NCBI GenBank assembly: GCA_000004985.1
Contig: GG738894.1
Source: Naegleria gruberi
Lineage: Eukaryota
Length of the DNA: 64,000 nucleotides
Reading direction: 5' to 3' (one strand)
Part shown: in pieces, positions 7,126 through 64,000 of the stretch
How the letters are laid out: each line of letters begins with the position of its first letter
Position numbering within the stretch: the stretch's first letter is position 1
Translations under genes and position numbers: made by a program
The notes under the pieces: generated by a model
Told to the model about the DNA's origin: nothing
Seen by the model: only the letters and a program-made list of their open reading frames with translations
Databases searched by the model: none

Positions 7126-7145
7126 AATGGTTTAATGGAAAGAAT

Positions 7146-11231: not shown

Positions 11232-11984
11232 GGGTAATGTCAGTTTAAACTGTGGAGGAAAGGGATAATGAAAATGGGTTTCAGTGTGGTTGAATGACCA
11301 GCTCTTTCAACCTAATGAATGGTGTTTCGTACAAAATTGATTCTTTTTTTTTGAGAATGTTTCGTCTACAGTCTAATAGAGTTAGGAGGATGACTGAAGT
11401 AGAAAAGGTGCGTCTTTATGAATTACCGTGAGAGGAGTGAAGGACAACTGAGGTTTGTGCTCAAAAGAGAGTACGGTCTTTTAGGCGTGTGTACTTTTTT
11501 TTCAGTGATGTGAAGAAACCTTTAGAATAAGAATAAGAAGAATCAACAATTATTCATTCAAAATACTCAGGTTCAAGACAGAAAAGCAAAGTAATATAAT
11601 CGACCTATTAATCGTACAAAAAACTGGATCACTTTCATTTGTAATTGTCTCCTTTTTAAATCTGACTTGTGACTTGACTGGGTCTATTTGGTTTGATTCC
11701 ATGTCATGCAATTTTGTAACACAGATATTTATTCCTTGAAGAAAAGTACTACACCAATTGTAATCCATTCCTTTTTCATTTGTATACACTAGAATACTAA
11801 TTGAATTTAATTCACATCTTAAAACTCGCACTCGTGAAACAATTAAAAATTCAAAATAAGCGCTCATGCAGAATTTCCACAAGTTATCTTTAAAATAAAA
11901 AATTTAAACGTTTATTAATCGTATGAACCCGACGGGTTCGTCTTGATGATATTACGAATATTAAATAATAAATTCTTTCTTGTT

Positions 11985-13610: not shown

Positions 13611-14759
13611 TTACAAAACCAAAGCAAATAATGCAACGATAACCATAATTAAGGAAACAAGATGCATACTCAATACATTTGCGCTATTAACTCTTGTATC
13701 GAAAGTGGTATATGTTTGTACATAATCCAAATAACTTGTAACATTTGTATAGATACCTCTATTTGAAACCGATCCTGCAGTTCCACATCCGTTAGGTCCA
13801 AAACTAACAATACCAAAAACAATATAATCATTTGTAGAATTAGGAGCTTTGTAAAATAATGGCCCTCCAGAATCACCTTGACAGCTAGTTATCATTAATT
13901 AATTATTGGAATTAATATTTTCAACTTAAATAATGAGGAATAAATACACCTACCTGTCATGTCCTTTTCCATCGCCAGCACAGATTTGTTTTGGTGATGA
14001 AGCATCCAAGTTAATAGCATTACATTTACTCATATCAACCACAGGTACAGTAACTTTCATCAAATCTGTTGGAAGTGGTTGAGTATCAACAGTTGTTCCC
14101 CATCCAGCAACAATAGATGAGAAACCAATAGGAATTGATCCAATTTCCAAATAGGCAGCCTTAGCTGTTTTACCGTCCAATGTCATTGCTGATTCCAATT
14201 CAAGAATAGCTATATCATTTACAACATTATTATTTGAATCACTATATTGAGGATGGACATGAATGTTCTTTATCTTAATATATTTACGTTGTACATCACT
14301 CACAGAATTTCCACCATATACAGCAATCCAAGGTAATGTATCAGGGGGACTGAAACAATGGGCAGCTGAGAGTAAATATTTGGAATTTATAATTGAAGCT
14401 CCACAAGTGTGACTGTAGCTTTTGGCGCTGATATCATCAGCCTGTTGGAGTGAGACAATGAATGGAAATTCGTTGGTGCTTGCCTTTTCACCATTGGACA
14501 CTTTAGAATCTCTCACTTTAAGTTGTTGAGCAGTTGATAATTTAGATATTAAGGCAACAATACTCAACAGAAGGAGGGCAAGAGTCCTCTTCCTTCCACT
14601 GTTACTACTTCCTCCGATCAACATTGTGTGAATTTTTATTGTTGTTGAAATAATTAAATTGGAAGTGTGAAGGACAAAACCAATCCAAAGATTACTGTGG
14701 AAGAGGAAATAGAGCGTTCTTTTAGGAGATAATTTGATCATTCTTTTATTATATTTCAC
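13611..14759 (-). CDS. Trypsin-like (S1) serine protease. Two exons with an intron at ~13885..13953. The start is probably the internal Met at ~14624.
   Basis: LSAAHC (His), DIAIL (Asp), GDSGGP (Ser) and C-terminal [10 protein letters not shown]. Exon 1 …[10 protein letters not shown] joins [11 protein letters not shown] through GTAGGT…CTAG. Signal peptide MLIGGSS…[19 protein letters not shown]-terminal hydrophobic tail ([16 protein letters not shown]). Confidence 0.75.
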
Positions 14760-28454: not shown

Positions 28455-28655
28455 ATTAGTTTGAATTGTAGTGAAATAATTGCCAAATATTCAAGATTTA
28501 GCTTATTAGAAACTTTATTCTAAAACGCACTAAACTAAAAGGAATTGCATATTAAATCGCTCAATACGCTCGTCGTTCTACCGTTGGCCCCGTTGTTAAC
28601 TTGGGAAGTAAAGGTCTATTTCCACTCTCGTCAATTTAACATTCTTACAAAAAAA

Positions 28656-29720
28656 ATGCTGAAATATTTAGCTGTCATTTGTCTTGTATTTTTTAGTTGT
28701 CATCTTGTGGCTGCAAAATTGCAAGTTACACCAAATAATGAACGTGGCATCAAGGTAGCAAATGGTCAAACTGCTGGTGAACACGAATTTCCTTTCATTG
28801 TTTCCATTCAAAAACAACTTTCGTCCGGAGCTTTCGAACATCTCTGTACAGGAAGTATCCTATCGAGTACATTTGTATTGACAGCTGCTCACTGTTTAGA
28901 CTCATCTACAACACTTGTTGTTGTTTACGGAACTTATGACAATACATGTTCAGATAATTGTAAATACATCAAAGTCAAAAATCAAATTGCTCATCCTTCC
29001 TATCAGAAAGGAACAGAAAGAAATGACATTGCTGTATTTGAACTTGAAAGTGCATTGCCAATTGATGATTCAACTGTTAGTACAGTTTCTATTGATGCAA
29101 ATTCAATTGCAATTCATGATGAGGAAAGTGATTCTTCTAGATTAGTTTTAATTTCTGGTTGGGGAGCTTTGAATTCTAACTTGGATTATCCTAAAAAGTT
29201 ACAAAAGGCATCTGTTCCAATTGTTAAAATGTCATATTGTAATAATTTGAATTTGGGTGGAGTTGATATTGAACAAATTTGTGCAGGAGCTGGAAATGGT
29301 AAGTTTTTACAATTTTAGAAAGTGAATTTCAATAATTTTCATAGGAAGGGATGCTTGCAGTGGAGACAGTGGTGGTCCTTTATTTAGAAAAATATCTTCC
29401 TCTTCAAAATATACTCAATTTGGTGTTGTAAGTATTGAAATACTTTACAAAAAATTATTGAAATATTGTAAAATATTGTAAAATAGGTTTCGACTGGTTA
29501 TGAAACTTGTGGAGCAACTGTTAGTAGAGGACTCTATTCGAATACCACTTTCTATCTATCATTCATTCAAACATACGTCCCAGGAGTTTCTGTTAATCAA
29601 GATTCGGATACTGTCAATCCAGGAGATATTGGAACTGGTAATACTGGAACAGGTTCTCAAATTGTATATACCTCACTATCATTTATTGTACTTTTATTCA
29701 TAATTTCACTAATTTTCTAA
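28656..29720 (+). CDS. Trypsin-like (S1) serine protease. Three exons (~28656..29298, 29345..29427, 29487..29720).
   Basis: Signal peptide MLKYLAVICLVFFSCHLVAA. TAAHC (His), NDIAVF (Asp). Exon 2 encodes [14 protein letters not shown] (Ser) after GTAAGT…ATAG. Exon 3 encodes STGYETCGATVSRGLYSNTTFYLSFIQTYV after a second GTAAGT…AATAG intron. C-terminal hydrophobic tail (SLSFIVLLFIISLIF). Confidence 0.8.
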
Positions 29721-29753
29721 GTTATTTGAAAAACAAAACACTTTACAAAAAAA

Positions 29754-30916
29754 TTAAAGAGAATTCAAAATTTCTTCAGCAGTTTTTTCCACCTCTTGTC
29801 TATTCAAAGTATTAACAATGTAAACTCCCTTCACTTGTTTATGTGAATCGGCTTTAATAAATCTACTCATGAGAAAATCCTTCACTTGATTGACTTGTTC
29901 TGAGCTTTTCACAAATTCTGGAAAGAGAGAGGAAAAGACAACTTTTTGTCTGTGAATGATTTCTTCCAAAATGTCAAGTTTTGTAAAGATTAGAAAGATT
30001 GGAACAGTGGTTGATGAGATAACGTCCTTGAAACATTTCAAACTCTCATTAGCTCTGTTGAAATTCATTTTCCGATATACATATTCGAATAGAGGTAATA
30101 AACTTACCTATTTTCATTCTGATCTTCATAACAATATTGAAAGCATTCACTTAATGAAACCATGAAAAAGATAGCATCTGGAAGAGGATTTGCACTAATT
30201 ACATGTTTCCATTTCTTTCTCTCATTTCTTTGTCCTCCTGTATCTGTTCTAAATTCGTAAAATATTGAATTACCCAATTAGTTAATAACATACATGGTCA
30301 ATTTGAAATTTTTAAATTCAGTTGATCCACAATTTACAATTCCGACTGTCTTTTTCTGTAATCTTGCCAGATCCTCAATTGTTGGCTCATAATTATTCGA
30401 AAGTAGAATTCTCTCACTATTCTTAAAGAAATATTGATGATTTCCTGCGAGATGAAGGAGAGGATACAGTTCTGGATTGTCAATCACATCACAAACTGCT
30501 GGATTTTTCAATAATTTGATAAAATTCTTGCAATTCTTCAACAACACCTCCAAATGTCTCCTTTCAAAATGACTGTCAACATAATTTTCCACTAGGTGAG
30601 CTAATTGCTTGACAATATTTTCATCATCACCTGTAATATTCCTTCTAACCTGCGCATTTGTTGTAATATTCACCAAATTTTGAAGAACACTATATTGAAT
30701 ATGTTCGGAATGAATTTTCAAATTCTTATCAACAACAACTTGATTGGAAATTAATTGTCGTGCAAATGATGATTTGCCACATTCACCAGTTCCCAGAAAT
30801 ACAAACGACTTGTTGATGAATGAGCACGATGGAACAATTCCAGTAAAGAAGGTGAAGGGAGGAGAGGGCTTGTTCTTCATTTTGTTTTTTTTTGTATAAT
30901 TGTAAGTGGGCGGCAA
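29754..30916 (-). CDS. Divergent heterotrimeric G-protein alpha-subunit-like protein. Three exons (30294..30916, 30108..30248, 29754..30054).
   Basis: P-loop FLGTGECGKSS (compare GAGESGKST). Switch II/G3 TDTGGQRNERKKW after a GTATGT…TTTAG intron. G4 FTKLD and C-terminal NRANESLKCFKDVISSTTVPIFLIFTKLDILEEII (compare NRMHESLKLF…ILFLNKKDLFEEKI) after a GTAAGT…AACAG intron. No N-terminal MGC. Confidence 0.7.
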
Positions 30917-30969
30917 TCCTTAGAGCTACTTATTCGATTCTTTATTTATGGAAATGAAGAGTGGTGAAG

Positions 30970-32818
30970 TTATTCCTTCCTGCACAACATAAAGATGTGC
31001 TCTGGATTCCTAGAGAACATTTTTTCAATTCTGTACTGTCTTTGACTAATGCTGGTAATTTCTACAAATTTTGTACAATCTTCATTATTTCCAGGGAATC
31101 TACCAGTCGCAAATGTTGTTCCCATACCATTAACAATTATTGTATAGTTTGTTCCACATATTATTTGTTTGATACCTTCTGATACGAGTGCATGAGGCAA
31201 TAGATTTGTAACTTCGAATAGACGGCACTGAGAAGTCTTATTTCCAATACCCAATTGACCATTAAAATTCAATCCAGCTGCAAACACTCTTTGGTCAACT
31301 GTCATGCAAAATAAATGACTTGATCCACAAGAAACATCTACTAACTTGATATTTTGGCCATCTACATTGAATTGATTAGGGTGAACATATTTCAACCAGT
31401 GGATAGAGGAAGAAGCTCTACTAGCTGAGGATTTAGAGGAAGCTGCTGAGGAAGGTTTTTCATGATTATAAGGAAGGAATTTAGGTATTAATGGCTGCAC
31501 CAACTTTCCTTGAAATGAGAAATCAACTTTTACATCCAATTCTTCTCCATTCTTCCCAGGTTCCAAATTAATATCCACTTTAACAAACTTTTCCACCACT
31601 TTTTCAGATACAGAAAATTGAGCCTCTGTTGGACGATAATTGTTCGCGACGAATGTACCATTAGCAATTACACCAGTCATTCCACAACCACATAGCCATA
31701 ATTGACCATGCTTTGCCAGGAATGCAGAATAATCACTTCCACACATTATTCCATCAATCTCAACAAATGTTTTCTTTGTTCTCAATCTTCTGTATTCCTC
31801 GGTTTCTTGTTGTGTTTCTCTCATAATTTCTACCAATCTTGGTCTGGGAACATACTTAAGTTGAGCCTTTTCTGTTTGTGATAAATCCCCTTTGATATCC
31901 AAAAATCCAAGAACTCCTAGTTGACCTTGAGAACCATTTCCGAATCCATACACTAATCCAGTATCCGTAAGGCAAATAGTATGATGATCACCACAAGCAA
32001 CCTTAGTAATTCTAATATCTCTATTAATGAAATCCTCAACAACTCGTGGCACATTTTCATTTTCGAAATTTGAATGACCAAGTTGCCCATATTTTCCATA
32101 TCCAAAAGTATGTACATTTCCCTCGTCTGTAACTATAGCAGAGTGATGTTTGCCAACAGCAATATCAATTGCTCTATCCATGATTAGAACTGGTTTCCTC
32201 ACAAATGGTGCCTTTGTTCCTGTTGAATCTTCATATCCATCACCAAGTTTTCCGAACTCTGCATCTCCAATACTATATACAAATCCATCCCCTGTTGTTA
32301 TTTCATTCAATACAAACAAAATACATAGTATAATTATTAAATAAATATTTGGAGAGATACTTACTTGTTAGGATTAAGCAATGTTTAAATCTTGTCTCAA
32401 TTTTAGTAATTTTATAAGGAGGAATCACAGTGTCTTCCACTTTCAATGAATATCCAAATGGACGAAGTGGAAAATACACTTTATAATCGGGATCATACAA
32501 CCTTCTCTCCTGAATTCTTTTCTCTGTCCACGGTAATGGATAGGTCTCTTCCTGCCATTTTCCTCTTGATTTTGGTGGTTTTGCATTAGGATCAATCATA
32601 ACCATCTTTCTCGAAAATTCAGCTCTAAAATCACTAGACTCCGAAAATGAACAACCCAACTCTCTTTGTTTTGGATTTTCCAATAAGGTTAAAAGTAAAC
32701 TCAAATCCTCCTCCCTTATAGATGATGCTGTCGATGTCTCACTGACATAGGAACGAACTGAATGAGCAGAGTGAGAAGACGACGATCGATTTGAACGAGC
32801 AGATCCAATTGAACTCAT
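30970..32818 (-). CDS. RCC1-repeat (regulator of chromosome condensation-like) protein. Two exons with an intron at ~32292..32364.
   Basis: Repeated FGxGxxGQLG blades (FGYGKYGQLGH, FGNGSQGQLGV, AAGLNFNGQLGIG). The Ser-rich N-terminal exon (32365..32818) joins through GTAAGT…AACAG (…LILT-R-DGFVYSIGDAEFGKLGDG). Confidence 0.75.
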
Positions 32819-33108
32819 TTTTTTGTAGTTTTTGGCGGGAAATTTTCAAACCAACAACAAACCACAACATCATTAAACAAACAAGCACAAGCATTATAAA
32901 TGTTTGAAAAAAACAAATCCAATAACTAAGGTCTGCTCAATAAATTGTTTTGTATTCAACACACATTTTATTTACCCTTTGATGCACAGAAGTGAATCAT
33001 GTCATCCTGTCATTTCAAGACCCGAGTCACTCCATAAAAATATTAAAAGGTAATCCATGACATTTCACTATCAAATTTCTCATCACAATAAAAAATATTA
33101 ACAACACA

Positions 33109-34257
33109 ATGAATACAGGCAAGTGGCTCGTCCTCTCCTTGTTGTTTGTAGTTTTGTTGGCATGCGCTTCCTTCGCCTCTGCTCAACAAGCTGAAACACA
33201 AGCTGTCATCAAAACAACAGCAGCTCCAGCTGTCAAACCAACAACAACAGCTGTCAAACCAAAAGTTGTTGCTAAAAAGAAGAAAACTGCCAAGAAATCA
33301 AAGAAGGCTCAAAAGAAGAAGGTAAAGAAAGCCAAGAAGGCCGCTAAGAAGGCAAAGAAGGCTAAAAAATCAAAGAAATCATCAAAGAAGACTTGTGCTA
33401 GAGTTGTCAAGAGATTTAGAAAGGCTTCCGGAAAATTGAGAAAAGCTTTGAAGAAATCCAAAAAGTCTGTAAAGAGACTCAGATCCCGTGTTCAAAAGTT
33501 GAGACTCAGATTGAAGAAGTGTGGAAAGTCTGTCAAGAAAGCTAAGAAGGCTGTCAAGAAGGCCAAAAAAGCTGCCAGAAAGACTAAGAGATCCAAGAAA
33601 TCCAAGAAGGCAAAGAAATCAAAGGCCAGAAAATTGAGAAAATTGAGAAGATGTGCCAAGAAGGCTAAATCCTTGAAGAAGAGAAAGGCCTGTAGAAAGG
33701 CATTGAAGAGAGTTAGAAAGCTCAGAAAGTTGAGAAGATGTGCCAAGAAGGCTAAATCTTTAAAGAAGAGAAAGGCTTGTAGAAAGCTCTTGAGAAGAAT
33801 CAGAAAGCTCAGAAGATTGAGAAGATGTGCCAAGAAGGCCAAGACTTTGAAGAAGAGAAATGCCTGTAAAGCTGCTTTGGCTAAACTCACCAAGAAGGTT
33901 AAGAAGGCCAAGAAGGCTGTCAAGAAGGCCTCTAAGAAATCAAAGAAGTCAAAGAAGACTGCCAAGAAATCAAAGAAGGTTGCCAAGAAAGTTGTTGCCA
34001 AGAAGCTCACTGTTGAACAAAAGAAGGTTGCTGTTGCCGAAGCTATCAAGAAGGCTATCAGAGCTGCTGCTAACAAGGTCAAACAAGCCAAGAAGATTGC
34101 TGCCAAGAAGGTCACTAAAAAGACTGCCAAGAAGCAAACCAAGAAGACTGCTAAGAAGTCCAAGAAGGCTGCCAGAAAGACCAAGAAATCAAAGAAGACC
34201 TCTAAGAAGCAATGGAGAAAGTTGGTTAAGAGATTGACCAAGCTCTACAAGTGCTAA
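33109..34257 (+). CDS. Secreted highly basic Lys/Ala-rich protein with Cys-containing tandem repeats
   Basis: Signal peptide MNTGKWLVLSLLFVVLLACASFASA. About 45% Lys. Three tandem copies of a ~30-aa unit RKLRKLRRCAKKAKSLKKRKACRKALKRV. The overlapping minus-strand ORFs are artefacts of the repeat. Confidence 0.6.
   Translation: MNTGKWLVLSLLFVVLLACASFASAQQAETQAVIKTTAAPAVKPTTTAVKPKVVAKKKKTAKKSKKAQKKKVKKAKKAAKKAKKAKKSKKSSKKTCARVVKRFRKASGKLRKALKKSKKSVKRLRSRVQKLRLRLKKCGKSVKKAKKAVKKAKKAARKTKRSKKSKKAKKSKARKLRKLRRCAKKAKSLKKRKACRKALKRVRKLRKLRRCAKKAKSLKKRKACRKLLRRIRKLRRLRRCAKKAKTLKKRNACKAALAKLTKKVKKAKKAVKKASKKSKKSKKTAKKSKKVAKKVVAKKLTVEQKKVAVAEAIKKAIRAAANKVKQAKKIAAKKVTKKTAKKQTKKTAKKSKKAARKTKKSKKTSKKQWRKLVKRLTKLYKC
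33630..33860 (+). repeat. Three tandem ~90-bp coding repeats inside the K-rich gene
   Basis: aaattgagaagatgtgccaagaaggctaaatc[c/t]ttgaagaagagaaaggc[c/t]tgtagaaag… is repeated three times with few substitutions. Confidence 0.6.
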
Positions 34258-35706
34258 ATTATTGGCCAATGTGTTAAATTATTAATTTTTCCCTAACTGA
34301 ACTAAATGTAATACAATGCTATTGAAAACAGACCTTGTTAGGAATTTATCTTTCTTGTTTTGTTCTTTGAGCTTGTGAAGTAATTGCACTTTTGCAAACT
34401 TTCAAACAACTTATCGGAATAACTTCTAATTGACTGCTAATATTTTCAAGAAACAAATAAGATGTTGAAATGATTCTTTTGCAAGTAGGGTTCTCAACGA
34501 TTGAGGTCGATATTAGTACCGGTTATCACTATTTCCATAAGGAAAGAGATCAACACCTAATAAAGACCAAGGAGACAAACAGTGACTAGAATTGAGCAAA
34601 TTCTTACTGAAATTTTGTGTTATCCCAACCAAATGAGCAATAATAATCTTCAAACAAAATAAAATAAGAAGAGATAACTACCATAGTTTGGTTCCCAACT
34701 TTTCAAAAATCAAATAGGGATTTCATCTTTTTCATGCAAAGAACTGTCTCTGCCAAGAAAACACTTCAATAACTACTTTATTGGTGGAGAGGACCTGAGG
34801 AGATTGTTGATGTATAACATATTTCTCTCAATGATAATTGGAAGACAGTTGCTTCCGATGCATTGATGATGAAGGTAATATCTGTTCAGGACAAGTTGAT
34901 AATGGTCAAAGACCAACACTGAAAACAAGCCTTAGAAAAAAAACTGAAAAAAACAACAACATATCATTTTGCAGTGCAGTTCGTTTCTCTTGATAACATT
35001 GTTATTAACCCTAACACCTACAACAATAACTGGTTAACTTGCTCTCTCCCGAATAAGATCACTTTAGTGGTGCGTCATCATTATCACCACACTGGTGATC
35101 CACAACAAGAAACAAACTCTCAATAACAAACAACAAAAACGCTTCATCAACAAATTGGTATTGAAGGTTCAGTGCGTTTCCTAATTTCTTAAGCTTGCCA
35201 AATACGTGCATCATTAAACCTATTGACCTGCAACAATCACACAAAAGAACTAGCTGTCATACCCAACATTAGCACCCTTACTTATTCTAGCATCCTAATA
35301 AGTCCATCAACATCACCAAACAAGGCAGAGAATCGTTTTAAGGTTCCATCATTTCAATATTGACATACAACACTTGCAAACAAGGCTATTGAGACTCTGT
35401 TAAAGCATTGCATGTGCTTTGTTTTCAAATCATCTGCATGGATCAATTTTTCTTAATTTTATCATCCAAGATTCACTAAATTCCACGACACAACAAAATA
35501 TCGTCACTCTCTGTGCTTTAACAATTATAACCAAGCACGAGGAAGAAGTAAAAGAGAACTGATTCAGAAATAGAATAGGTCGTACTGTTAGAAACAAGTA
35601 GAGTCGTCATATACATGAAAAGTAGTGAATTCAAGTATTGCTTTTTAATTGATTTGAAAGAAAAAGAAAACGAATTTAATCCTAAACATTCAACCACTTC
35701 ATCGAC

Positions 35707-36630
35707 ATGAAAGACTCACAACAACAGCAGCAACCAGCACAGCCCCAACCTTTGAAATTTATTCAAGTCTCGAATGTGAAAAAGAAACCAGTCCAACGAA
35801 AAAAGTACTATCCCACAAAGAGTAACAAAAGGCAGCAGGGTAGTAACAAATCATCAACAAGCAATCAAACATGTAGTCAAGAAGGTCATTCACAACATGA
35901 GCAAGCATCACATTCTCATGTACACTCGACAACTACATGTTCCTCATCTAGCTTATCCAGAAGTATTTTACATGGGATTGGATCTTCCGAGGTTAATTAT
36001 ATGAATGGAAATAATGACGATTCAACCAGCTCATTGGATGCTTCTTCATCTTTACACATGTTGCAACAACATCCAACAAGCAATTCTAAAGGACCGTCAT
36101 TGCATGTGTTCAACAACAATACATTGGATGAAACATCTAAACATAGTGATTCGAGTAGTGTAGGAATTGAACATTGCATGCATGGAAGAAATTCAACATC
36201 ATCTCCTGCTAGCAACATGTTATCCACATCCATCAATAATAACAGCAATAATATTCATTTTGTGATGGAGGCATCTCCCAAGTACATAACTCATGTGGCA
36301 AAGAAGAGGAATACTCTTGCCAAGGACAATCTCATCAAGGTTTTACACTTGTCACAAGTACAGGCATGCCGAGTATTGGGATGTAGTTTGTCCACATTAA
36401 AAAGAAGATTTGGAGAGGTTAAACAGGAATTGGGAATGGAGAAATGGCCCTCCTATTATGATGATGTGAGACATTTACCGATATTTCCCAAACTTTACCC
36501 AATGTCTCTGCAATTCATTATGAATGAGCATGACTGCTCTGATTTGCCACAGGACTGCAACCTAATATTTGAGCACGCTGCACAATTAAGCTCAACCTTT
36601 CCAAAACCATTAACTTCTCCTGAGGATTAA
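35707..36630 (+). CDS. RWP-RK domain transcription-factor-like protein (paralog 1)
   Basis: The C-terminal domain IKVLHLSQVQACRVLGCSLSTLKRRFGEVKQELGMEKWPSY matches the RWP-RK consensus (L…A..LG.S.T.LKR.CR..GI.RWP.RK). Gln/Ser-rich N-terminus. Confidence 0.6.
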   Translation: MKDSQQQQQPAQPQPLKFIQVSNVKKKPVQRKKYYPTKSNKRQQGSNKSSTSNQTCSQEGHSQHEQASHSHVHSTTTCSSSSLSRSILHGIGSSEVNYMNGNNDDSTSSLDASSSLHMLQQHPTSNSKGPSLHVFNNNTLDETSKHSDSSSVGIEHCMHGRNSTSSPASNMLSTSINNNSNNIHFVMEASPKYITHVAKKRNTLAKDNLIKVLHLSQVQACRVLGCSLSTLKRRFGEVKQELGMEKWPSYYDDVRHLPIFPKLYPMSLQFIMNEHDCSDLPQDCNLIFEHAAQLSSTFPKPLTSPED

Positions 36631-37519
36631 TCTTTGTGCTTCATCTTTTAAAGGATGTTCATGCGAGAAATCAAAAACAGATTCGATTTGAACTTTGGTA
36701 TTTAATATGCACAATTGGATCACCAATTACGGAATGTTGCCAATAATGATACATTGTTTGACAGTTTGCATTTTTGTTGAAGTTGCAGAAACCAACAATG
36801 AGCCAAATCTGACAATGTTATTTGGAAGGTTCAACATTTGGTTGTATTATCTATCATACCACTCCTAAAAAGGAGGTGCTTAGTTATGAGTTGCCATGGC
36901 TTAATATACAAACATACTTTTGGGAAATAGGAAAATTATTAAATTTGGTGATGATGCTTTTTCGTATGCTGACAAAATGCGCGGAGTGAATCAACAATAC
37001 ATATCTATGAGCTAAATCTCTTTGGATTTTCCAACATGTGCTTTATCTATTGCTTTCTAAAATAATATTTGTTTTAAAGTTCATAGGTAGGGCAAAATCT
37101 ATTGTGCCATTCATTCCTATTAGGTAATCAGCTTTTCTTCCTTATTGAAATAATGGACTTTGAGCGAAAAAGGACTCACATTAATGTAGAAAAAATTGTC
37201 ATTATTATTATCATCTTTCATTTTTCCTTTTTCCTTAACCCCCAAAAGTCCTTTTTTAAACTACTCACGGAGAGAATCTAGATTCTGTAGCGGCTGAATT
37301 TTTACACTAAGGAACAGAAGTAACATAAATGTTAAGCTATTAGTGTAAAGTTGCTGGGGCACAACCGCAAAAGGCTGTCCAAGTTTGCTCAAGTCCTTGA
37401 AAGCAAGCAGCATAAAAATTCGAGCTGCTTCTTTTGTTTTTTATGCATCAGCAGGAGCAACAATCATTTCAAAACAAATACCTCAATATTTTCCATTCTG
37501 ATACCTTCATCTCCTCAAT

Positions 37520-38023
37520 ATGCTAACTACCCTCACAACATCCAGTAATTTAAAGATAGATGGAAATTTGCAGATTGATTCACTTCCTTCCTCACTCCTT
37601 GTATCAACACAACCTCAGCACCATCAACAACAACAGGATAATTTATCTAGCTATAGCATTACAGTGTGGAGAAAATCCTCTCACGACTCTTCATTTCACA
37701 CCAAGATTGTTGAGAGAAGAAAACATGAGAGAAGAAACAAACTCATCACTCGAAAAGAAATGATTAAAGTATTGCACCTCTCTCAAAATCAAGCATGCAA
37801 AGTATTGAATTGTTCATTGTCGACTCTCAAGAGAAGATTCTACCAATTGAAAGATGAAATTGGACTCGATAGATGGCCTCAATACTTTAAAGAGGTGAGG
37901 CATTTGCCAATCTTTAATCAAATGTATCCAATGTCTCTTGAATTCATCCTCAATGATCCAAATACATGTCAACAAGATGAAACCATTAGTGATCCAGAAG
38001 AGTTTGATGATACTTCTAATTAG
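37520..38023 (+). CDS. RWP-RK domain protein (paralog 2). The 5' extent is uncertain.
   Basis: IKVLHLSQNQACKVLNCSLSTLKRRFYQLKDEIGLDRWPQYFKEVRHLPIFNQMYPMSLEFILND is about 65% identical to the C-terminus of 35707..36630. Confidence 0.6.
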   Translation: MLTTLTTSSNLKIDGNLQIDSLPSSLLVSTQPQHHQQQQDNLSSYSITVWRKSSHDSSFHTKIVERRKHERRNKLITRKEMIKVLHLSQNQACKVLNCSLSTLKRRFYQLKDEIGLDRWPQYFKEVRHLPIFNQMYPMSLEFILNDPNTCQQDETISDPEEFDDTSN

Positions 38024-38147
38024 AGACATGTGGATTATGATGTTTACAAGTTTTATAGAAACAAGTGGTGGTCTAATACCAAATGATGATCTCATTGAAG
38101 GACTTTATTTACACAACAGCATGAAAACAATGATTGTGTTTAACAAA

Positions 38148-38971
38148 CTACTCTTTAAAATAGGTATCAAACTTGTCCTTAAGCATGTCCAAATTGGATC
38201 CAAAGAATGCGCACATTTGTTCCAAATCAAGAATTTGACCCTTGTCTATACGGTCCATGAATCTGTAATCATCCAAATTCATCACTGTGTTTGGATCTGC
38301 TCGAATTGGAGGATAAATTGGTGGCTTTGCAGAGTATTCACCCTCTTCATTGATCATGTGAGATCGATCAGAGCTGAAGGATTTCAAAAATTCACATGCT
38401 GGAACAATTCTAAACTGTTATCATTAAGCAAATAATGAAAGAAATCACAAACAACTTACCTTTAAGCAATTCATCAATTCGCAGAGTCTCTTACTTGGAT
38501 TCCTTATCATGAAGGTCAATAAAAAGGAATTTACAATATAACTTTCAAATGTAGATGGAAAATCCAAGCGAGTGTCCATGTCATAGACTGTTGATTGTTG
38601 AGTTGCAGAATTTTTGTGTACCAAAATGACATGATAATCTATTGAGCAGTATTTTAAATATTAAATATTTTGTAAATAATTTTTAAATATTAAATAATTA
38701 TTAATAGAATAATTAAATAGATATTAAATAAAATTCGATAATATGAAAACTAACCCCAAATAATCAAACCACCAGTATCATTTTGATACCACATTGGCAG
38801 TAATTTCTCATCCGATGAAAGAAACATGACAAAACATGAATCTAATTCATCATTGGATTTCTCATCCCGAATATATTCACATAATTTATAGATATTCTCC
38901 TCACAATAGCAGTGAGTGTAGATTCTTTCCGATTTCTTGCCTTTAATTCCGAGAGGATCACGTTCTTCCAT
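38148..38971 (-). CDS. NTAQ1: Protein N-terminal glutamine amidohydrolase (NTAQ1/WDYHV1). Three exons (38755..38971, 38460..38638, 38148..38414).
   Basis: Exon 1 YTHCYCEENIYKLCEY…LIIWG, exon 2 DYHVILVH…DTRLDFPSTFESYIV…, and exon 3 …SSDRSHMINEEGE…PPIYPPI…NLDDYRFMD are collinear with human NTAQ1 (CYCEENIWKLCEY…VIWDYHVVLLH…DLDTVLPFPCLFDTYV…ASDRSHMKD…PPPYPCI…NLNDFISMD). Introns are GTTAGT…CAATAG and GTAAGT…AACAG. Confidence 0.8.
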
Positions 38972-39009: not shown

Positions 39010-40080
39010 CTATTTGATGGACACGAGAGGGAGGAAACCTTTACAATTTTGAGATTTACATTGGCACTTGCGTTGAGAAAATTGTAAATTTGCTGATTCA
39101 TTGTTTTGTAAAGTATTGCCCTCACCATAGTCAAATGTCAGTTCAGTATTTTCTGGAATATCTTTGGCAGCAAAGAAGAATAATCGTGGATGATCTTCTG
39201 AGCATGTTCTTAGGACTCTCCATGTGAGATTTGGATCACAACTGTGATTGAAAAATCTACTCACATTTCCAAACTTTTCTGCATCAATATTTAATCGTCT
39301 AGTTTCGTATTTTTGTTTGGATTCTAATGCCTGTGAAATGTGAAAATATTCCTTGATAATCAACAGGTAATGATGTTTGTCCTGTATGCTCGAATTTAAA
39401 ATCTCATTCGATTCTTTGTCTGAAAGAACTTTTCCAATATATTCACTAATGAACTCTCCCTTTTGTATGAAATTTTTGCATTTCACTCCAAATCCAACAC
39501 ATTCTCCAATTGAAAATAAATATAATGGTTTGTCAATAGTTCCCAAATAGTGAATGGGAGTAATTCTATTCCTACATCTAGTGGAATCACAACTGCAATC
39601 ATCTGAGCATTCAATAATTGGAAATGAATAATCCAAATCTAATAATCCATTTTCAGGTTTTAAAAAGTGTTTGCCATTGTGATAATTTCTAGCAAAACAT
39701 GAGCAATCCATTGTTGAGCATGAAATCTTTCTAACAACAATATTCGAATGAGATGAAATTAATTTGTTACAATCACAGACAGAATTGGTCAATTCATCAT
39801 TCTTATTATCCTCATTTTCCTCATCAAGTAATTGAAAATCATCACCTATTATGTCTTCACTCCAATAATTTTCAATAATATATGTAAAATCATTCAATAA
39901 AATCTCATCATGATTTGAATAATTAACAATTTTTAAATCTTCCTTTCCGAGTGAGATATCCACTCGATTGTGAATGATTTTCCTCCACCGAGAGCACACT
40001 CTAGCACAATTATACAAGACAAATGCTTCACAATATTGTGAGAAAAAAAGAATGAGGAGTGTGGAGGAAAATTGTTTCAT
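39010..40080 (-). CDS. SUV39-type SET-domain histone-lysine methyltransferase with an F-box-like N-terminus
   Basis: Pre-SET Cys cluster (CDCNKL…CSTMDCSCF…CSDDCSCDSTRCRNR). SET motifs GFGVKCKNFIQKGEFISEYIG and RFFNHSCDPN, then ELTFDYG. Post-SET CQCKSQNCKGFL. Confidence 0.8.
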   Translation of the reverse strand: MKQFSSTLLILFFSQYCEAFVLYNCARVCSRWRKIIHNRVDISLGKEDLKIVNYSNHDEILLNDFTYIIENYWSEDIIGDDFQLLDEENEDNKNDELTNSVCDCNKLISSHSNIVVRKISCSTMDCSCFARNYHNGKHFLKPENGLLDLDYSFPIIECSDDCSCDSTRCRNRITPIHYLGTIDKPLYLFSIGECVGFGVKCKNFIQKGEFISEYIGKVLSDKESNEILNSSIQDKHHYLLIIKEYFHISQALESKQKYETRRLNIDAEKFGNVSRFFNHSCDPNLTWRVLRTCSEDHPRLFFFAAKDIPENTELTFDYGEGNTLQNNESANLQFSQRKCQCKSQNCKGFLPLVSIK

Positions 40081-56965: not shown

Positions 56966-57129
56966 ATTTACAACCTAGATTAAAAACTAAATTATAAAAC
57001 AAATAAAGCTGAGTAGGGAGCTTTGTGTAAAATAAGAGCCAACGATTGTTATTTACAAAATAATTTATTTTCTTTTACATCTGTTCCTGTATCAGTATTT
57101 ATTTACCTTTTGATTAGTGTTGAATCGAT

Positions 57130-57220
57130 GGTGAGTTGGTCGAGTGGTCTAAGACGACACGTTAAGGTATGATTAATACCGTGTTCCGCAAGGGCGTGGG
57201 TTCAAATCCCACACTCATCA
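57130..57220 (+). tRNA. tRNA-Leu(AAG) with an 11-nt intron (approximate coordinates)
   Basis: Type II tRNA. Acceptor GGTGAGT/ACTCATC with one G-U pair, and discriminator A. D-arm GTC-GAGTGGTCTAA-GAC. Anticodon stem ACACG/CGTGT with loop TTAAGG-[TATGATTAATA]-C, the intron sitting after position 37. Long variable arm. T-arm GTGGG-TTCAAAT-CCCAC. Confidence 0.7.
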
Positions 57221-57422
57221 GTTTTTAATTTAATGATCAAAATAAAATTTTATCTTCATTGCCATCAAAAATCATTTTAGTACTTTGTCAATCTTATTTC
57301 CTCTCACACCATTATTGTAGCGCGGAAGCAAGGTAATCCATCGAAAATCAATGGTGAGGTTGAACACGTGTTCAGATCATCAAACAAATATCAAGAGCTC
57401 GGAAAATTGCGATATAAAAAAA

Positions 57423-58393: not shown

Positions 58394-58467
58394 GCCTTCC
58401 TAGCTCAGTTGGCAGTAGCGCTGTCCTAGTAAGACAGAGGTCTTGGGTTCGATTCCCAAGGGAGGCA
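58394..58467 (+). tRNA. tRNA-Thr(AGU) (approximate coordinates)
   Basis: Acceptor GCCTTCC/GGGAGGC with one G-U pair, and discriminator A. Anticodon stem CTGTC/GACAG with loop CTAGTAA (U33, AGT, A37). T-arm TTGGG-TTCGATT-CCCAA. The D-stem has one mismatch. Confidence 0.55.
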
Positions 58468-60853: not shown

Positions 60854-60870
60854 TTTCCTCCGTTTGTTAT

Positions 60871-60920
60871 NNNNNNNNNNNNNNNNNNNNNNNNNNNNNN
60901 NNNNNNNNNNNNNNNNNNNN
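60871..60920. other. Assembly gap (50 N)
   Basis: Run of N. Confidence 1.
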
Positions 60921-61909
60921 CGGATAGAGATGGAAATAATATTGTAATAATATTAATCCGTTTAACATGGAATTTTTACATAAATAAGCACTTTTTGGAA
61001 TTTTGCTTTGGCTTAATCAATTTCTGTTTAAGAGATTCCAAATATTCCACATCAAGTTCAATAATATTCTTTAACAGTTTTAAACCCAAATCGGTTCCGC
61101 TTAGTAATCTCACACAATCTAAGAATATTTCTTCCACATTTATGTTAAACTTGGCACTTGTCACAGAGGTATTTAACAATTCATATTGACTAATCTTGTC
61201 ATTCACAACTTGTTTAGCTTTCTCAGTAATTTCCCTCTTTTCTTCCTTCTCTTCTTCTGTGAAATCATCAACCTTATTCAATGCAAAAATTATTGGAATA
61301 CTTTTTAATTGTTCGATTCCTCTAACTCGAGCCATGAATTCCATATGATATCCTAAAGAGCAATCATCTATTGAACTAGGATCTGTCAGAGAGCAAACAA
61401 CTACAATACAATTGGAATTACAAAGGCATTGCTCTTTAAATAAATTACTTTCATACTCCTCATGTCCATCTACGAGAACTCCAAAATTTTGTAAATAATT
61501 GTTTTACTTACAGAAATCGAAAATATTAAATAAATATTGATCTCCACCAATTTCCACATATTTTCTGTAATTATCATCAATTGTTGGGGTGTTGTGTTCA
61601 AGGAAATTTCCCTGAATGAATTGAATAATTAGCGAACTTTTACCTAATTATTTCGAATAGGTTTAATTCAATAATAAACTCACCAACTCCTCCATCTCCA
61701 AGGAGAAGAATCTTAATTTCTTCATCATGATATTCATTTTCATTTCTAGTGATGGGAACTGTACTTAAAAATTGTTTCGTATAAAGTGTTAGAATAATCT
61801 TTCTTCGGAGATTTCCTATTTCCACCATTTGATTTTTAACTTGATCAAATTCTTCTCTGTTTTTCTCTTTAATTCTAACTTGACTTTCGAATAATTTCCA
61901 CCAAATATT
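60921..61909. repeat. Exact duplicate of 40139..41127 (offset +20782), bounded by N gaps
   Basis: Every block I compared is identical to the original, including the exon 2 region. It carries exons 3 and 2 and part of exon 1 of the F-box-Ras gene. The first base after the gap differs (cgg versus agg). Confidence 0.8.
60976..61909 (-). CDS. Partial second copy of the F-box-Ras-like GTPase (exons ~60976..61469, 61512..61643, 61684..gap)
   Basis: Identical sequence to 40194..41127. Truncated by the gap at 61910. Confidence 0.6.
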
Positions 61910-64000
61910 NNNNNNNNNNNNNNNNNNNNNNNNNNNNNNNNNNNNNNNNNNNNNNNNNNNNNNNNNNNNNNNNNNNNNNNNNNNNNNNNNNNNNNNNNNN
62001 NNNNNNNNNNNNNNNNNNNNNNNNNNNNNNNNNNNNNNNNNNNNNNNNNNNNNNNNNNNNNNNNNNNNNNNNNNNNNNNNNNNNNNNNNNNNNNNNNNNN
62101 NNNNNNNNNNNNNNNNNNNNNNNNNNNNNNNNNNNNNNNNNNNNNNNNNNNNNNNNNNNNNNNNNNNNNNNNNNNNNNNNNNNNNNNNNNNNNNNNNNNN
62201 NNNNNNNNNNNNNNNNNNNNNNNNNNNNNNNNNNNNNNNNNNNNNNNNNNNNNNNNNNNNNNNNNNNNNNNNNNNNNNNNNNNNNNNNNNNNNNNNNNNN
62301 NNNNNNNNNNNNNNNNNNNNNNNNNNNNNNNNNNNNNNNNNNNNNNNNNNNNNNNNNNNNNNNNNNNNNNNNNNNNNNNNNNNNNNNNNNNNNNNNNNNN
62401 NNNNNNNNNNNNNNNNNNNNNNNNNNNNNNNNNNNNNNNNNNNNNNNNNNNNNNNNNNNNNNNNNNNNNNNNNNNNNNNNNNNNNNNNNNNNNNNNNNNN
62501 NNNNNNNNNNNNNNNNNNNNNNNNNNNNNNNNNNNNNNNNNNNNNNNNNNNNNNNNNNNNNNNNNNNNNNNNNNNNNNNNNNNNNNNNNNNNNNNNNNNN
62601 NNNNNNNNNNNNNNNNNNNNNNNNNNNNNNNNNNNNNNNNNNNNNNNNNNNNNNNNNNNNNNNNNNNNNNNNNNNNNNNNNNNNNNNNNNNNNNNNNNNN
62701 NNNNNNNNNNNNNNNNNNNNNNNNNNNNNNNNNNNNNNNNNNNNNNNNNNNNNNNNNNNNNNNNNNNNNNNNNNNNNNNNNNNNNNNNNNNNNNNNNNNN
62801 NNNNNNNNNNNNNNNNNNNNNNNNNNNNNNNNNNNNNNNNNNNNNNNNNNNNNNNNNNNNNNNNNNNNNNNNNNNNNNNNNNNNNNNNNNNNNNNNNNNN
62901 NNNNNNNNNNNNNNNNNNNNNNNNNNNNNNNNNNNNNNNNNNNNNNNNNNNNNNNNNNNNNNNNNNNNNNNNNNNNNNNNNNNNNNNNNNNNNNNNNNNN
63001 NNNNNNNNNNNNNNNNNNNNNNNNNNNNNNNNNNNNNNNNNNNNNNNNNNNNNNNNNNNNNNNNNNNNNNNNNNNNNNNNNNNNNNNNNNNNNNNNNNNN
63101 NNNNNNNNNNNNNNNNNNNNNNNNNNNNNNNNNNNNNNNNNNNNNNNNNNNNNNNNNNNNNNNNNNNNNNNNNNNNNNNNNNNNNNNNNNNNNNNNNNNN
63201 NNNNNNNNNNNNNNNNNNNNNNNNNNNNNNNNNNNNNNNNNNNNNNNNNNNNNNNNNNNNNNNNNNNNNNNNNNNNNNNNNNNNNNNNNNNNNNNNNNNN
63301 NNNNNNNNNNNNNNNNNNNNNNNNNNNNNNNNNNNNNNNNNNNNNNNNNNNNNNNNNNNNNNNNNNNNNNNNNNNNNNNNNNNNNNNNNNNNNNNNNNNN
63401 NNNNNNNNNNNNNNNNNNNNNNNNNNNNNNNNNNNNNNNNNNNNNNNNNNNNNNNNNNNNNNNNNNNNNNNNNNNNNNNNNNNNNNNNNNNNNNNNNNNN
63501 NNNNNNNNNNNNNNNNNNNNNNNNNNNNNNNNNNNNNNNNNNNNNNNNNNNNNNNNNNNNNNNNNNNNNNNNNNNNNNNNNNNNNNNNNNNNNNNNNNNN
63601 NNNNNNNNNNNNNNNNNNNNNNNNNNNNNNNNNNNNNNNNNNNNNNNNNNNNNNNNNNNNNNNNNNNNNNNNNNNNNNNNNNNNNNNNNNNNNNNNNNNN
63701 NNNNNNNNNNNNNNNNNNNNNNNNNNNNNNNNNNNNNNNNNNNNNNNNNNNNNNNNNNNNNNNNNNNNNNNNNNNNNNNNNNNNNNNNNNNNNNNNNNNN
63801 NNNNNNNNNNNNNNNNNNNNNNNNNNNNNNNNNNNNNNNNNNNNNNNNNNNNNNNNNNNNNNNNNNNNNNNNNNNNNNNNNNNNNNNNNNNNNNNNNNNN
63901 NNNNNNNNNNNNNNNNNNNNNNNNNNNNNNNNNNNNNNNNNNNNNNNNNNNNNNNNNNNNNNNNNNNNNNNNNNNNNNNNNNNNNNNNNNNNNNNNNNNN
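61910..64000. other. Assembly gap (2091 N)
   Basis: Run of N to the window end. Confidence 1.

What the first reader, a model, noticed from the sequence alone, without database searches (positions are those of the whole stretch)
35707..38023. Tandem pair of RWP-RK domain genes, each preceded by a long ORF-free upstream region
Two paralogs about 1.8 kb apart share a ~65%-identical C-terminal RWP-RK-like DNA-binding domain (…LSTLKRRF…(K/R)WP(S/Q)Y…HLPIF…YPMSL(Q/E)FI(M/L)N(E/D)) but have unrelated low-complexity N-termini. RWP-RK factors are characteristic of plants, algae and dictyostelids. Each gene lies downstream of an unusually long non-coding region of moderate GC (34260-35700 and 36640-37520).
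Basis: partly seen in the sequence, partly recalled or inferred. Interest (0 to 1): 0.5.

Follow-up and report, generated by a model that had tools for sequence, protein, structure and literature searches.

The report
Neighbouring RWP-RK regulator genes in Naegleria
The window comes from the amoeba Naegleria gruberi, and the finding is two adjacent, already annotated genes for small DNA-binding regulators of the RWP-RK family, a family already published as one of the largest regulator families in Naegleria, so the finding is real but ordinary.

Summary
ORF A (35707-36630, 307 aa) and ORF B (37520-38023, 167 aa) share a 77-aa C-terminal domain (61% identity, E 3e-35). Their N-termini are unrelated and S/N/Q/H-rich. 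Pfam RWP-RK matches B above the curated cut-off (33.4 vs 29.3 bits) and A just below it (26.6 bits, E 5.6e-6).

The two proteins are exact matches to Naegleria gruberi NAEGRDRAFT_72000 and NAEGRDRAFT_72001. Herman et al. 2021 list RWP-RK as the third-largest transcription-factor family in Naegleria (26-27 genes in N. fowleri, 39 in N. gruberi), and they list the N. fowleri orthologues of A and B as RWP-RK.

What this analysis adds:
- A and B belong to a subfamily whose named members are all Naegleria or Willaertia, with weaker relatives in Acrasis. It has four extra residues before the WP, no "RK", and a conserved C-terminal extension (RHLPIF..YPMSL.FILN).
- A and B are old paralogues that stay linked in three Naegleria species although the flanking genes differ.
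- The ORF-free stretches upstream of A and B are the two longest in the window. Long upstream spacers recur for nine subfamily genes (median 898 vs 217 nt, p = 5e-5).

Most likely these are conditionally expressed helix-turn-helix transcription factors with large regulatory regions. Their biological role was not tested.

The parts
34258..35706 (.). 1449-nt non-coding spacer upstream of gene A: presumed promoter or 5' leader
   Evidence: It contains the longest ORF-free stretch in the window. It has no Rfam, tRNA or repeat feature. The 98%-identical contig L003 shows frame-breaking indels and 1.10% substitutions here, against 0.54% in the A coding sequence. GC content is 33.6%. A weak 27-nt A/C-rich block at 35127-35153 matches the regions upstream of A in N. 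fowleri and N. lovaniensis (81% identity, E about 0.01).
35707..36630 (+). Gene A, a single-exon ORF of 307 aa = N. gruberi NAEGRDRAFT_72000 (EFC40153.1 / D2VSN2)
   Evidence: ORF; exact sequence match. Orthologues are N. fowleri FDP41_006135 and N. lovaniensis C9374_008547.
36301..36531 (+). Extended RWP-RK domain of A (aa 199-275). The Pfam core is aa 204-249 (36316-36453). The subfamily C-terminal extension SYYDDVRHLPIFPKLYPMSLQFIMN is aa 249-273 (36451-36525).
   Evidence: Pfam 26.6 bits, E 5.6e-6. BLASTP against B. Alignment A1. AlphaFold2 model with helices at fragment residues 14-20, 25-32 and 36-50 followed by three short helices, mean pLDDT 76.
36631..37519 (.). 889-nt non-coding spacer between A and B: presumed promoter or 5' leader of B
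   Evidence: It contains the second-longest ORF-free stretch in the window. The only Rfam match is below threshold, and there is no tRNA or repeat. There is no remnant of the UDG gene that occupies this interval in N. fowleri and N. lovaniensis.
37520..38023 (+). Gene B, a single-exon ORF of 167 aa = N. gruberi NAEGRDRAFT_72001 (EFC40154.1 / D2VSN3)
   Evidence: ORF; 100% identical to P0013. The orthologue is N. fowleri FDP41_006133.
37727..37957 (+). Extended RWP-RK domain of B (aa 70-146). The Pfam core is aa 76-121 (37745-37882). The C-terminal extension QYFKEVRHLPIFNQMYPMSLEFILN is aa 121-145 (37880-37954).
   Evidence: Pfam 33.4 bits, above the 29.3-bit cut-off. In the AlphaFold2 full-length model, pLDDT is 85-96 over aa 71-130 and 84 over aa 131-140, while the N-terminus (aa 1-70) scores 51-72 and has no secondary structure.

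Best explanation
A and B are two paralogous, single-exon genes of Naegleria gruberi (NAEGRDRAFT_72000 and NAEGRDRAFT_72001). They encode small sequence-specific transcription factors of the RWP-RK family, in a subfamily seen so far only in Heterolobosea. Each protein has a disordered, S/N/Q/H-rich N-terminal region, inferred to be an activation or interaction region. A short basic stretch follows (KKRN in A, RRKHERRNK in B), inferred to be a nuclear-localisation signal or a DNA-contacting arm. The C-terminus is a compact domain of about 75 aa. Three helices form a helix-turn-helix unit, with the conserved S-T-L-K-R-R-F helix as the likely DNA-reading helix. An invariant W-P turn follows, and then the subfamily-specific segment RHLPIF..YPMSL.FILN, which is predicted to fold back as three short helices. 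The 1.45-kb and 0.89-kb non-coding regions upstream of the genes are inferred to hold their promoters, control elements and possibly long 5' leaders. This would mean the two regulators are switched on conditionally, for example during starvation-induced differentiation, rather than expressed constitutively. Shown here: gene identity, family and subfamily membership, predicted fold, conserved A-B linkage, and the unusual size and non-coding nature of the spacers. Inferred: DNA binding, nuclear role, regulatory function of the spacers, and any biological process.
For: Identity: exact matches to the annotated N. gruberi proteins.

Family: PF02042 matches in A, B and 27 of 28 relatives. A subfamily profile reaches a plant RWP-RK protein at E 2e-9. 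The N. fowleri orthologues are listed as RWP-RK transcription factors in PMC8296547 Table S3.

Subfamily: 42 cluster representatives score 99 bits or more over the whole 96-position profile, including the extension. Below them, apart from two fragments (P0021, P0050), scores drop to 75 bits or less, where most matches cover only the core and a minority cover the whole profile weakly. All named strong hits are Naegleria or Willaertia; weaker whole-profile hits include Acrasis. The spacing from T-L-K-R to W-P is 13 residues in the subfamily and 9 in other hits.

Constraint: the domain is 70-76% identical between N. gruberi and N. fowleri orthologues, while the N-termini barely align.

Spacers: they are the two longest ORF-free stretches in the window. 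Indel pattern shows they are non-coding. Upstream spacers of nine subfamily genes in four genomes have a median of 898 nt, against 217 nt for 23 other intergenic intervals in the same loci (one-sided Mann-Whitney p = 4.9e-5). The regions upstream of the N. fowleri and N. lovaniensis A and B orthologues keep alignable blocks of 124-305 nt at 66-72% identity, while a control spacer of similar size keeps none.
Against: There is no expression, DNA-binding or localisation evidence for these two genes, and no paper in the searched library names them.

The R and K of the RWPxRK motif, usually taken as part of the DNA-binding signature, are absent. A scores below Pfam's curated cut-off.

Structural matches to helix-turn-helix domains are weak, and no RWP-RK structure was found among solved structures by sequence.

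No shared sequence motif was found in the nine upstream regions, so their regulatory role rests on their size and on partial conservation only.

The nine upstream spacers are not independent observations, because some belong to orthologues.
Confidence: 0.8

Rival explanations
1. The pair is a sex- or gamete-differentiation module, analogous to MID and VSR1 of volvocine algae. Under this reading A and B would form homo- and heterodimers that select alternative cell-type programmes in a cryptic Naegleria sexual cycle, and their conserved linkage would reflect a mating-type-like locus.
For: In green algae, small RWP-RK proteins control gamete identity, and MID and VSR1 associate physically (PMC10629530). 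B has a comparably simple build, with a short variable N-terminus and a C-terminal RWP-RK domain. A-B linkage is kept in three Naegleria species while the flanking genes differ. A second same-strand pair exists in N. fowleri.
Against: There is no evidence of allelic idiomorphs: the only other allele available (contig L003) is 98% identical and collinear. The subfamily has many members per genome, so nothing singles out this pair. The MID-VSR1 interaction uses the MID N-terminal domain and a separate VSR1 domain, not the RWP-RK domain, and no such domains were detected here. Adjacent genes can also stay linked by chance.
Confidence: 0.06
2. The long upstream stretches are not regulatory DNA of A and B. 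Instead they hold something unannotated, such as a non-coding RNA gene, a short or intron-rich gene, or the decayed remains of a lost gene such as the UDG gene that separates A and B in N. fowleri and N. lovaniensis.
For: N. fowleri and N. lovaniensis carry a 1.5-kb GRF-zinc-ribbon/UDG gene between A and B. The GC content of the spacers (33.6%) is near the window mean and above the middle of the range seen in other ORF-free gaps.
Against: tblastx and blastn find no UDG remnant in 36631-37519. The only Rfam match is far below threshold (17 bits against a gathering score of 55), and there is no tRNA or repeat. Indels between strains break any reading frame upstream of A. Long spacers recur upstream of other subfamily genes in different genomic contexts, which points to a property of the genes and not to a local relic.
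Confidence: 0.1
3. The domain no longer binds DNA. With the R and K of RWPxRK lost and a new C-terminal extension gained, these small proteins might act as protein-binding partners or dominant-negative inhibitors of canonical RWP-RK factors.
For: Only W and P of the motif are invariant; the R..RK positions vary or are lost. The extension is highly conserved and is predicted to pack on the domain. Canonical RWP-RK paralogues coexist in Naegleria, for example V212_g4821 with SRWPYRR.
Against: The putative recognition helix S-T-L-K-R-R-F is the most conserved part of the domain and keeps its basic residues. In oomycete RWP-RK proteins the first R and the K of the motif are also reported as less conserved, while W and P are buried scaffold residues (PMC7399023). 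So loss of RK does not by itself argue against DNA binding.
Confidence: 0.08

Closest known systems
Naegleria RWP-RK transcription-factor family as catalogued by Herman et al. 2021 (BMC Biol 19:142, PMC8296547, Table S3)
   Same: It is the same family and partly the same genes. The N. fowleri orthologues of A and B (Nfowleri986_g10375 / g10377; 30863_g7764 / g7766) are listed there as RWP-RK. The table gives 26-27 genes in N. fowleri and 39 in N. gruberi.
   Different: In the text searched, the paper counts and lists the domains but does not describe the subfamily features, the gene pairs or the long upstream spacers. The RWP-RK gene it highlights as up-regulated in virulent amoebae (V212_g4821) is a different, canonical-motif paralogue.
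Chlamydomonas/Volvox MID and VSR1 (RWP-RK regulators of gamete identity; Geng et al. 2023, PMC10629530)
   Same: B in particular shares the simple build of a short N-terminal region and a C-terminal RWP-RK domain with no other Pfam domain. The algal case is also one of two RWP-RK proteins acting together.
   Different: No orthology is shown. The motif and helix spacing differ, and the FILN extension was found only in Naegleria, Willaertia and, more loosely, Acrasis proteins among named hits. No link to a mating-type locus or to sex is known for Naegleria.
Plant RKD and NLP/NIN proteins (canonical RWP-RK family, PF02042)
   Same: The core is homologous: Pfam hits, and the subfamily profile finds a Vaccinium RWP-RK protein at E 2e-9.
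   Different: The canonical spacing is T-L-K-R + 9 residues + W-P followed by x-R-K. A and B have 13 residues and (S/Q)-Y. No PB1 or other NLP-type domain was detected.
Bacterial LuxR/GerE/NarL-type tetrahelical helix-turn-helix DNA-binding domains
   Same: They are the best structural neighbours of both models, for example ChrA, DegU, DosR, GerE, NarL and VqmA.

Membership tests
RWP-RK domain family (Pfam PF02042) | Score at or above the curated Pfam gathering threshold (29.3 bits) | tested here: met
   B scores 33.4 bits and passes. A scores 26.6 bits (E 5.6e-6), just under the threshold, but is 61% identical to B over the domain. Of 28 subfamily members, 27 match at E <= 1e-3.
RWP-RK domain family (Pfam PF02042) | The name-giving R-W-P-x-R-K motif | tested here: not met
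   A has K-W-P-S-Y-Y and B has R-W-P-Q-Y-F. Across 18 subfamily sequences only W and P are invariant. The Pfam match ends at profile position 43 of 49, shortly after the WP. The motif is partly retained (W-P, with R/K before it), but the R-K is missing.
RWP-RK domain family (Pfam PF02042) | Canonical spacing between the conserved (S/T)-L-K-R helix and the W-P | tested here: not met
   The spacing is 13 residues in A, B and 71 related matches, against 9 residues in 55 other matches, including a plant protein; N. fowleri V212_g4821 also shows the 9-residue spacing on reading its sequence. This amounts to a four-residue insertion.
RWP-RK domain family (Pfam PF02042) | Homology to plant or algal members detectable by profile search | tested here: met
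   The profile of alignment A1 finds a Vaccinium darrowii protein with three matched stretches, one showing the RWP-RK core motif TLKRNCRRLGIYRWP, at E 2.2e-9 in 1.84 billion proteins.
RWP-RK domain family (Pfam PF02042) | Helical helix-turn-helix-like DNA-binding fold | tested here: inconclusive
   The AlphaFold2 models are confident over the domain (B up to pLDDT 96), and most top neighbours are helix-turn-helix regulators, but all lie below the usual significance levels. No solved RWP-RK structure was found by sequence.
RWP-RK domain family (Pfam PF02042) | Sequence-specific DNA binding and transcriptional regulation | not testable with these tools
   This needs protein-binding microarray, DAP-seq or reporter assays.
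NLP/NIN subfamily of RWP-RK | C-terminal PB1 domain and N-terminal nitrate-responsive region | tested here: not met
   A and B have no significant Pfam hit other than RWP-RK, even at E <= 1.
MID-type sex or mating-type determinants | Residence in a mating-type or sex-determining region, and sex-limited presence | not testable with these tools
   Only one other allele (L003, 98% identical) is available. No mating system is defined for Naegleria.
Heterolobosean FILN-extension RWP-RK subfamily (defined here) | VLHL.Q.QA...L.CSLSTLKRRF + 13-residue spacing + WP + RHLPIF..YPMSL.FILN | tested here: met
   A and B carry all elements. There are 42 cluster representatives scoring 99 bits or more. Named members are N. 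gruberi, N. fowleri, N. lovaniensis and Willaertia magna.

The most novel reading that the evidence does not exclude
The A/B pair, and the similar same-strand pair FDP41_006179/006178 in N. fowleri, could be a conserved two-factor switch built from a Heterolobosea-specific RWP-RK variant. In this reading the conserved RHLPIF..YPMSL.FILN extension is a dimerisation surface, and the partners form homo- and heterodimers that choose between cell fates: amoeba, flagellate, cyst, or a cryptic gamete programme. This would parallel MID-VSR1 in green algae. If RWP-RK factors controlled life-cycle transitions in a lineage this far from plants, that role would date back towards the last eukaryotic common ancestor.
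Probability: 0.06. Interest if true: 0.65.

Novelty: already known. Interest (0 to 1): 0.2.

Why it matters
The main value is a correction of context. The window comes from Naegleria gruberi, not from a plant, alga or slime mould, and RWP-RK factors are one of that organism's largest regulator families. That contradicts the common description of RWP-RK as plant-specific (still repeated in PMC7399023), but the point was already made for Naegleria in 2021.

The incremental results may help anyone studying gene regulation in Naegleria, where the regulators of the amoeba-to-flagellate switch are unknown (PMC12183034). They are:
- a recognisable Heterolobosea-restricted subfamily with a degenerate motif and a new C-terminal extension;
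- recurrent gene pairs of this subfamily;
- unusually long upstream spacers in otherwise tightly packed loci.

None of this changes current understanding.

Tried and rejected
1. Synteny. tblastx and tblastn of the N. fowleri and N. lovaniensis loci against the window found only the two RWP-RK domains. The RCC1-like gene at 30970-32319 (-) is not the orthologue of the RCC1-like gene upstream of A in N. fowleri (22% identity, repeat-level similarity only).

2. UDG remnant between A and B: none found.

3. RNA genes, tRNAs and repeats in the upstream regions. There is one Rfam match far below threshold (sR36, 17 bits against 55), and no tRNA, meaningful repeat or tandem repeat.

4. Shared cis-motif. 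Counts of 7- to 9-mers across nine upstream regions did not exceed a first-order Markov null. Direct blastn of the region upstream of A against the region upstream of B gave only chance-level matches.

5. I first concluded that gene A was missing from the N. gruberi annotation, because the best database hit was a 98% metagenome protein. An exact look-up showed that it is NAEGRDRAFT_72000, hidden inside that 90% cluster, so I withdrew that conclusion.

6. An apparent duplicated domain in N. fowleri was an artefact of two loci stored in one file (resolved).

7. Solved structures by sequence: nothing significant. The AlphaFold-database fold library was not available.

8. Literature searches for the gene identifiers, for RWP-RK in other excavates and for Naegleria differentiation regulators found nothing specific.

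9. The bacterial promoter and terminator scan was not run because the sequence is eukaryotic.
Full report
**Observation**

A is at 35707-36630 (307 aa) and B is at 37520-38023 (167 aa). BLASTP of A against B gives one significant alignment: 47/77 identities (61%), 84% positives, E 3e-35. It covers A aa 199-274 and B aa 70-146, and nothing aligns in the N-termini. All quoted motifs are present: LSTLKRRF, (K/R)WP(S/Q)Y, HLPIF and YPMSL(Q/E)FI(M/L)N. The N-terminal parts are low complexity. A aa 1-198 is 21% Ser, 10% Asn and 9% Gln. B aa 1-69 is 19% Ser, 12% Leu, 10% Thr and 10% Gln.

I measured the claim about long ORF-free upstream regions. The window has 47 stretches with no open frame of 80 or more codons in any of the six frames. 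The stretches 34255-35685 (1431 nt) and 36628-37501 (874 nt) are the longest and second longest; the median is 139 nt. Their GC content is 33.6% each. The window mean is 34.3%, and ten other ORF-free gaps range from 24 to 35%.

**Source and identity of the genes**

The window is eukaryotic, about 34% GC. B is 100% identical over its full length to a Naegleria gruberi predicted protein on a 499,907-bp scaffold. An exact-sequence look-up identifies A as NAEGRDRAFT_72000 (EFC40153.1, UniProt D2VSN2) and B as NAEGRDRAFT_72001 (EFC40154.1, D2VSN3). The locus tags are consecutive, and both entries are named only "predicted protein".

I had first thought A was unannotated, because its best hit was a 98%-identical metagenome protein. 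That protein is simply the representative of the 90% cluster that contains the N. gruberi entry.

**Family**

Pfam RWP-RK (PF02042) is the top hit for both proteins. B scores 33.4 bits, above the curated cut-off of 29.3. A scores 26.6 bits (E 5.6e-6), just below it. Both match profile positions 2-43 of 49. Of 28 full-length relatives, 27 match PF02042 at E <= 1e-3. A profile built from 18 domain sequences (alignment A1) and searched against 1.84 billion representative proteins found 188 proteins at E <= 1e-3. One of them, a Vaccinium darrowii protein with three matched stretches and the RWP-RK core motif TLKRNCRRLGIYRWP, scored E 2.2e-9.

**What is already published**

Herman et al. 2021 (BMC Biol 19:142, PMC8296547) curated Naegleria transcription factors. 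Their Table S3 lists RWP-RK as the third-largest DNA-binding family, with 27, 27 and 26 genes in three N. fowleri strains and 39 in N. gruberi. The same table lists the N. fowleri orthologues of A and B as RWP-RK: Nfowleri986_g10375 / g10377 and 30863_g7764 / g7766. Their domain sequences are identical to those of P0004 and P0007. The main text notes that one RWP-RK gene is up-regulated in mouse-passaged virulent amoebae. That gene, V212_g4821, is a different paralogue with a canonical SRWPYRR motif.

It is incomplete for Naegleria, and that gap was already filled in 2021. No paper in the searchable library names the two N. gruberi genes.

**The subfamily**

The profile search shows a clear step. 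Forty-two cluster representatives score 99 bits or more and match the whole 96-position profile. Apart from two fragments (P0021 and P0050), scores then fall to 75 bits or less, and most of those matches cover only the RWP-RK core.

Seventeen strong hits carry an organism name. They come from N. gruberi, N. fowleri, N. lovaniensis and Willaertia magna. Weaker whole-length relatives include Acrasis kona proteins. The rest are unnamed metagenome proteins.

The subfamily consensus is VLHL(S/P)Q.QA...L.CSLSTLKRRFYELK.E.G...WP......RHLPIF...YPMSL.FILN, with 21 invariant columns. It differs from canonical members in three ways:
- Thirteen residues, not nine, lie between T-L-K-R and W-P. That is a four-residue insertion, seen in 71 matches against 55 with the canonical spacing.
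- The R-K after W-P-x is replaced, mostly by aromatic or polar residues.
- A conserved segment of about 25 residues follows the W-P.

**Predicted structure**

AlphaFold2 predicts the A domain as three helices, then the WP turn, then three short helices (mean pLDDT 76). For full-length B, it places the confident region at aa 71-140, with pLDDT block means of 85-96 for aa 71-130 and 84 for aa 131-140. That region includes the extension. The N-terminal 70 residues and the C-terminal tail are unstructured, with pLDDT 51-72.

**Relationship of A and B, and their linkage**

Over the domain, A is 76% identical to its N. fowleri counterpart and 73% to its N. lovaniensis counterpart. B is 70% identical to N. 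fowleri FDP41_006133. A against B is about 60%. In a neighbour-joining tree of 41 domains, the A orthologues and the B orthologues form separate clades, with other paralogues branching between them. The alignment is short, so this is indicative only.

The A orthologues also share short N-terminal motifs, (L/M)(K/R)FI(Q/H)VS and I(H/R)FVME, in otherwise unalignable sequence. A and B are therefore old paralogues and not a recent tandem duplicate.

Both genes lie on the same strand in N. fowleri (L001) and N. lovaniensis (L002), but there a GRF-zinc-ribbon/UDG gene sits between them. N. gruberi has no trace of that gene in the 889-nt interval. None of the other neighbours is shared between N. gruberi and the other two species. 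The only thing conserved around the pair is the pair itself.

Local clustering of the subfamily recurs:
- FDP41_006179 and 006178 are adjacent on the same strand in N. fowleri.
- NAEGRDRAFT_71772 and 71777 share a scaffold in N. gruberi.
- C9374_008542 lies five locus tags from the A orthologue in N. lovaniensis.

**The upstream regions**

They contain one Rfam match far below threshold (17 bits against a gathering score of 55), no tRNA, no meaningful repeat and no tandem repeat.

A metagenome contig, L003, is 98.0% identical to window 31949-37148. In the region upstream of A it differs by indels of 1, 2, 4, 16 and 17 nt and by 1.10% substitutions. The A coding sequence shows 0.54% substitutions and a single in-frame 9-nt indel. 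This is the pattern expected of non-coding DNA.

Long upstream spacers are a property of the subfamily and not of this locus alone. The nine values are 1449 and 889 nt here; 898 and 787 nt in N. fowleri; 993 and 648 nt in N. lovaniensis; 2241 and 890 nt for the second N. fowleri pair; and 961 nt for a relative of NAEGRDRAFT_71772. Their median is 898 nt. The 23 other intergenic intervals in the same loci have a median of 217 nt (one-sided Mann-Whitney p = 4.9e-5). Orthologous spacers are not independent, so the p-value is optimistic.

Between the sister species N. fowleri and N. lovaniensis, the regions upstream of A and B retain alignable blocks. Upstream of A there are blocks of 276 nt at 66% and 124 nt at 72%. 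Upstream of B there is a block of 305 nt at 67%. A control spacer of similar size retains none, and the spacer between A and UDG retains only 48 nt.

I found no motif shared among the nine regions. The only match between N. gruberi and the other species is a 27-nt A/C-rich block at 35127-35153, which is marginal (E about 0.01).

**Interpretation**

The best-supported reading is that A and B are conditionally expressed, sequence-specific transcription factors of a Heterolobosea-specific RWP-RK subfamily. In this reading, disordered N-terminal regions serve as effector parts, and large upstream regions carry the regulatory input. Gene identity, family, subfamily, predicted fold, linkage and spacer properties are shown by the analysis. 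DNA binding, regulation and biological role are inferred from what is established for RWP-RK proteins in plants and algae (PMC7399023, PMC10629530).

Three rivals remain open at low probability:
- A MID/VSR1-like cell-type switch, attractive because two RWP-RK factors act as partners in volvocine algae. Nothing here singles out this pair among the many subfamily members in each genome.
- Unannotated features inside the spacers.
- Loss of DNA binding following loss of the R-K residues.

**Verdict**

The finding is real and correctly interpreted, but ordinary. The genes are annotated, the family is published for this genus, and the orthologues are listed by name. The subfamily definition, the recurrent pairs and the long upstream spacers are modest additions. 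Interest is low (0.2). The most novel reading that the evidence does not exclude is a conserved two-factor life-cycle switch, with a probability of about 0.06.

Noticed in passing
window 33109-34257 (+): A 382-aa ORF with a hydrophobic, signal-peptide-like N-terminus, followed by an extremely lysine-rich sequence (KKAKK... runs) with regularly spaced cysteines. An 87-nt unit (29 aa, RKLRRCAKKAKSLKKRKACRK...) is repeated 2.7 times at 33637-33868. It has no Pfam hit. It is 99.5% conserved in metagenome contig L003. The 249-aa antisense ORF at 33492-34241 is Phe/Leu-rich and is probably a mirror artefact of the Lys codons.
   Followed up: partly
window 38148-38971 (-): An N-terminal glutamine amidase gene (Pfam Nt_Gln_amidase), split into at least two exons (ORFs 38750-38971 and 38148-387), lies tail-to-tail immediately downstream of B. 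The 165-aa + strand ORF at 37938-38435, which overlaps the end of B, is probably spurious.
   Followed up: partly
window 39010-40080 (-): A Pre-SET + SET domain protein (histone-lysine methyltransferase type) with a weak F-box-like match at its N-terminus.
   Followed up: no
window 28545-32818: This stretch holds a trypsin-like protease ORF (28545-29315 +), a G-protein alpha subunit fragment (30278-30916 -) and an RCC1-repeat gene (30970-32319 -, possibly continuing into 32303-32818). The RCC1 gene is not the orthologue of the RCC1-like gene that precedes A in N. fowleri.
   Followed up: partly
window 60870-64000: The window contains 2141 N, the first at 60870, and positions 62001-64000 have no called bases. 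This is an assembly gap, a scaffold end or padding.
   Followed up: no
window 57129-57221 and 58394-58467 (+): ARAGORN reports a tRNA-Thr(AGT) and an odd 93-nt tRNA-like call with an undetermined anticodon, possibly an intron-containing tRNA or a false positive.
   Followed up: no
L002 (N. lovaniensis PYSW02000034.1), about 13756-13976: The B orthologue has a one-nucleotide frame break inside the RWP-RK domain (GGG-ATGG, where N. fowleri has GGGAATGG). It is annotated as a 138-aa protein without a Pfam hit. This is either an assembly error or a pseudogene.
   Followed up: partly
L005 (N. fowleri VFQX01000051.1) 5760-11529: This is a second same-strand pair of subfamily genes, FDP41_006179 (8001-9713) and FDP41_006178 (10604-11529). 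Their upstream spacers are 2241 nt and 890 nt, and a further 1754-nt spacer precedes the next gene, which has an RGS domain.
   Followed up: partly
P0053 and P0055 (metagenome or Naegleria-like proteins): In some long relatives an hhFILNE-like motif (VSYLLNEQVKDP, MSFILNEGVKDP) lies about 300 residues downstream of the RWP-RK core, not directly after it. The FILN motif may therefore be a separable module.
   Followed up: no
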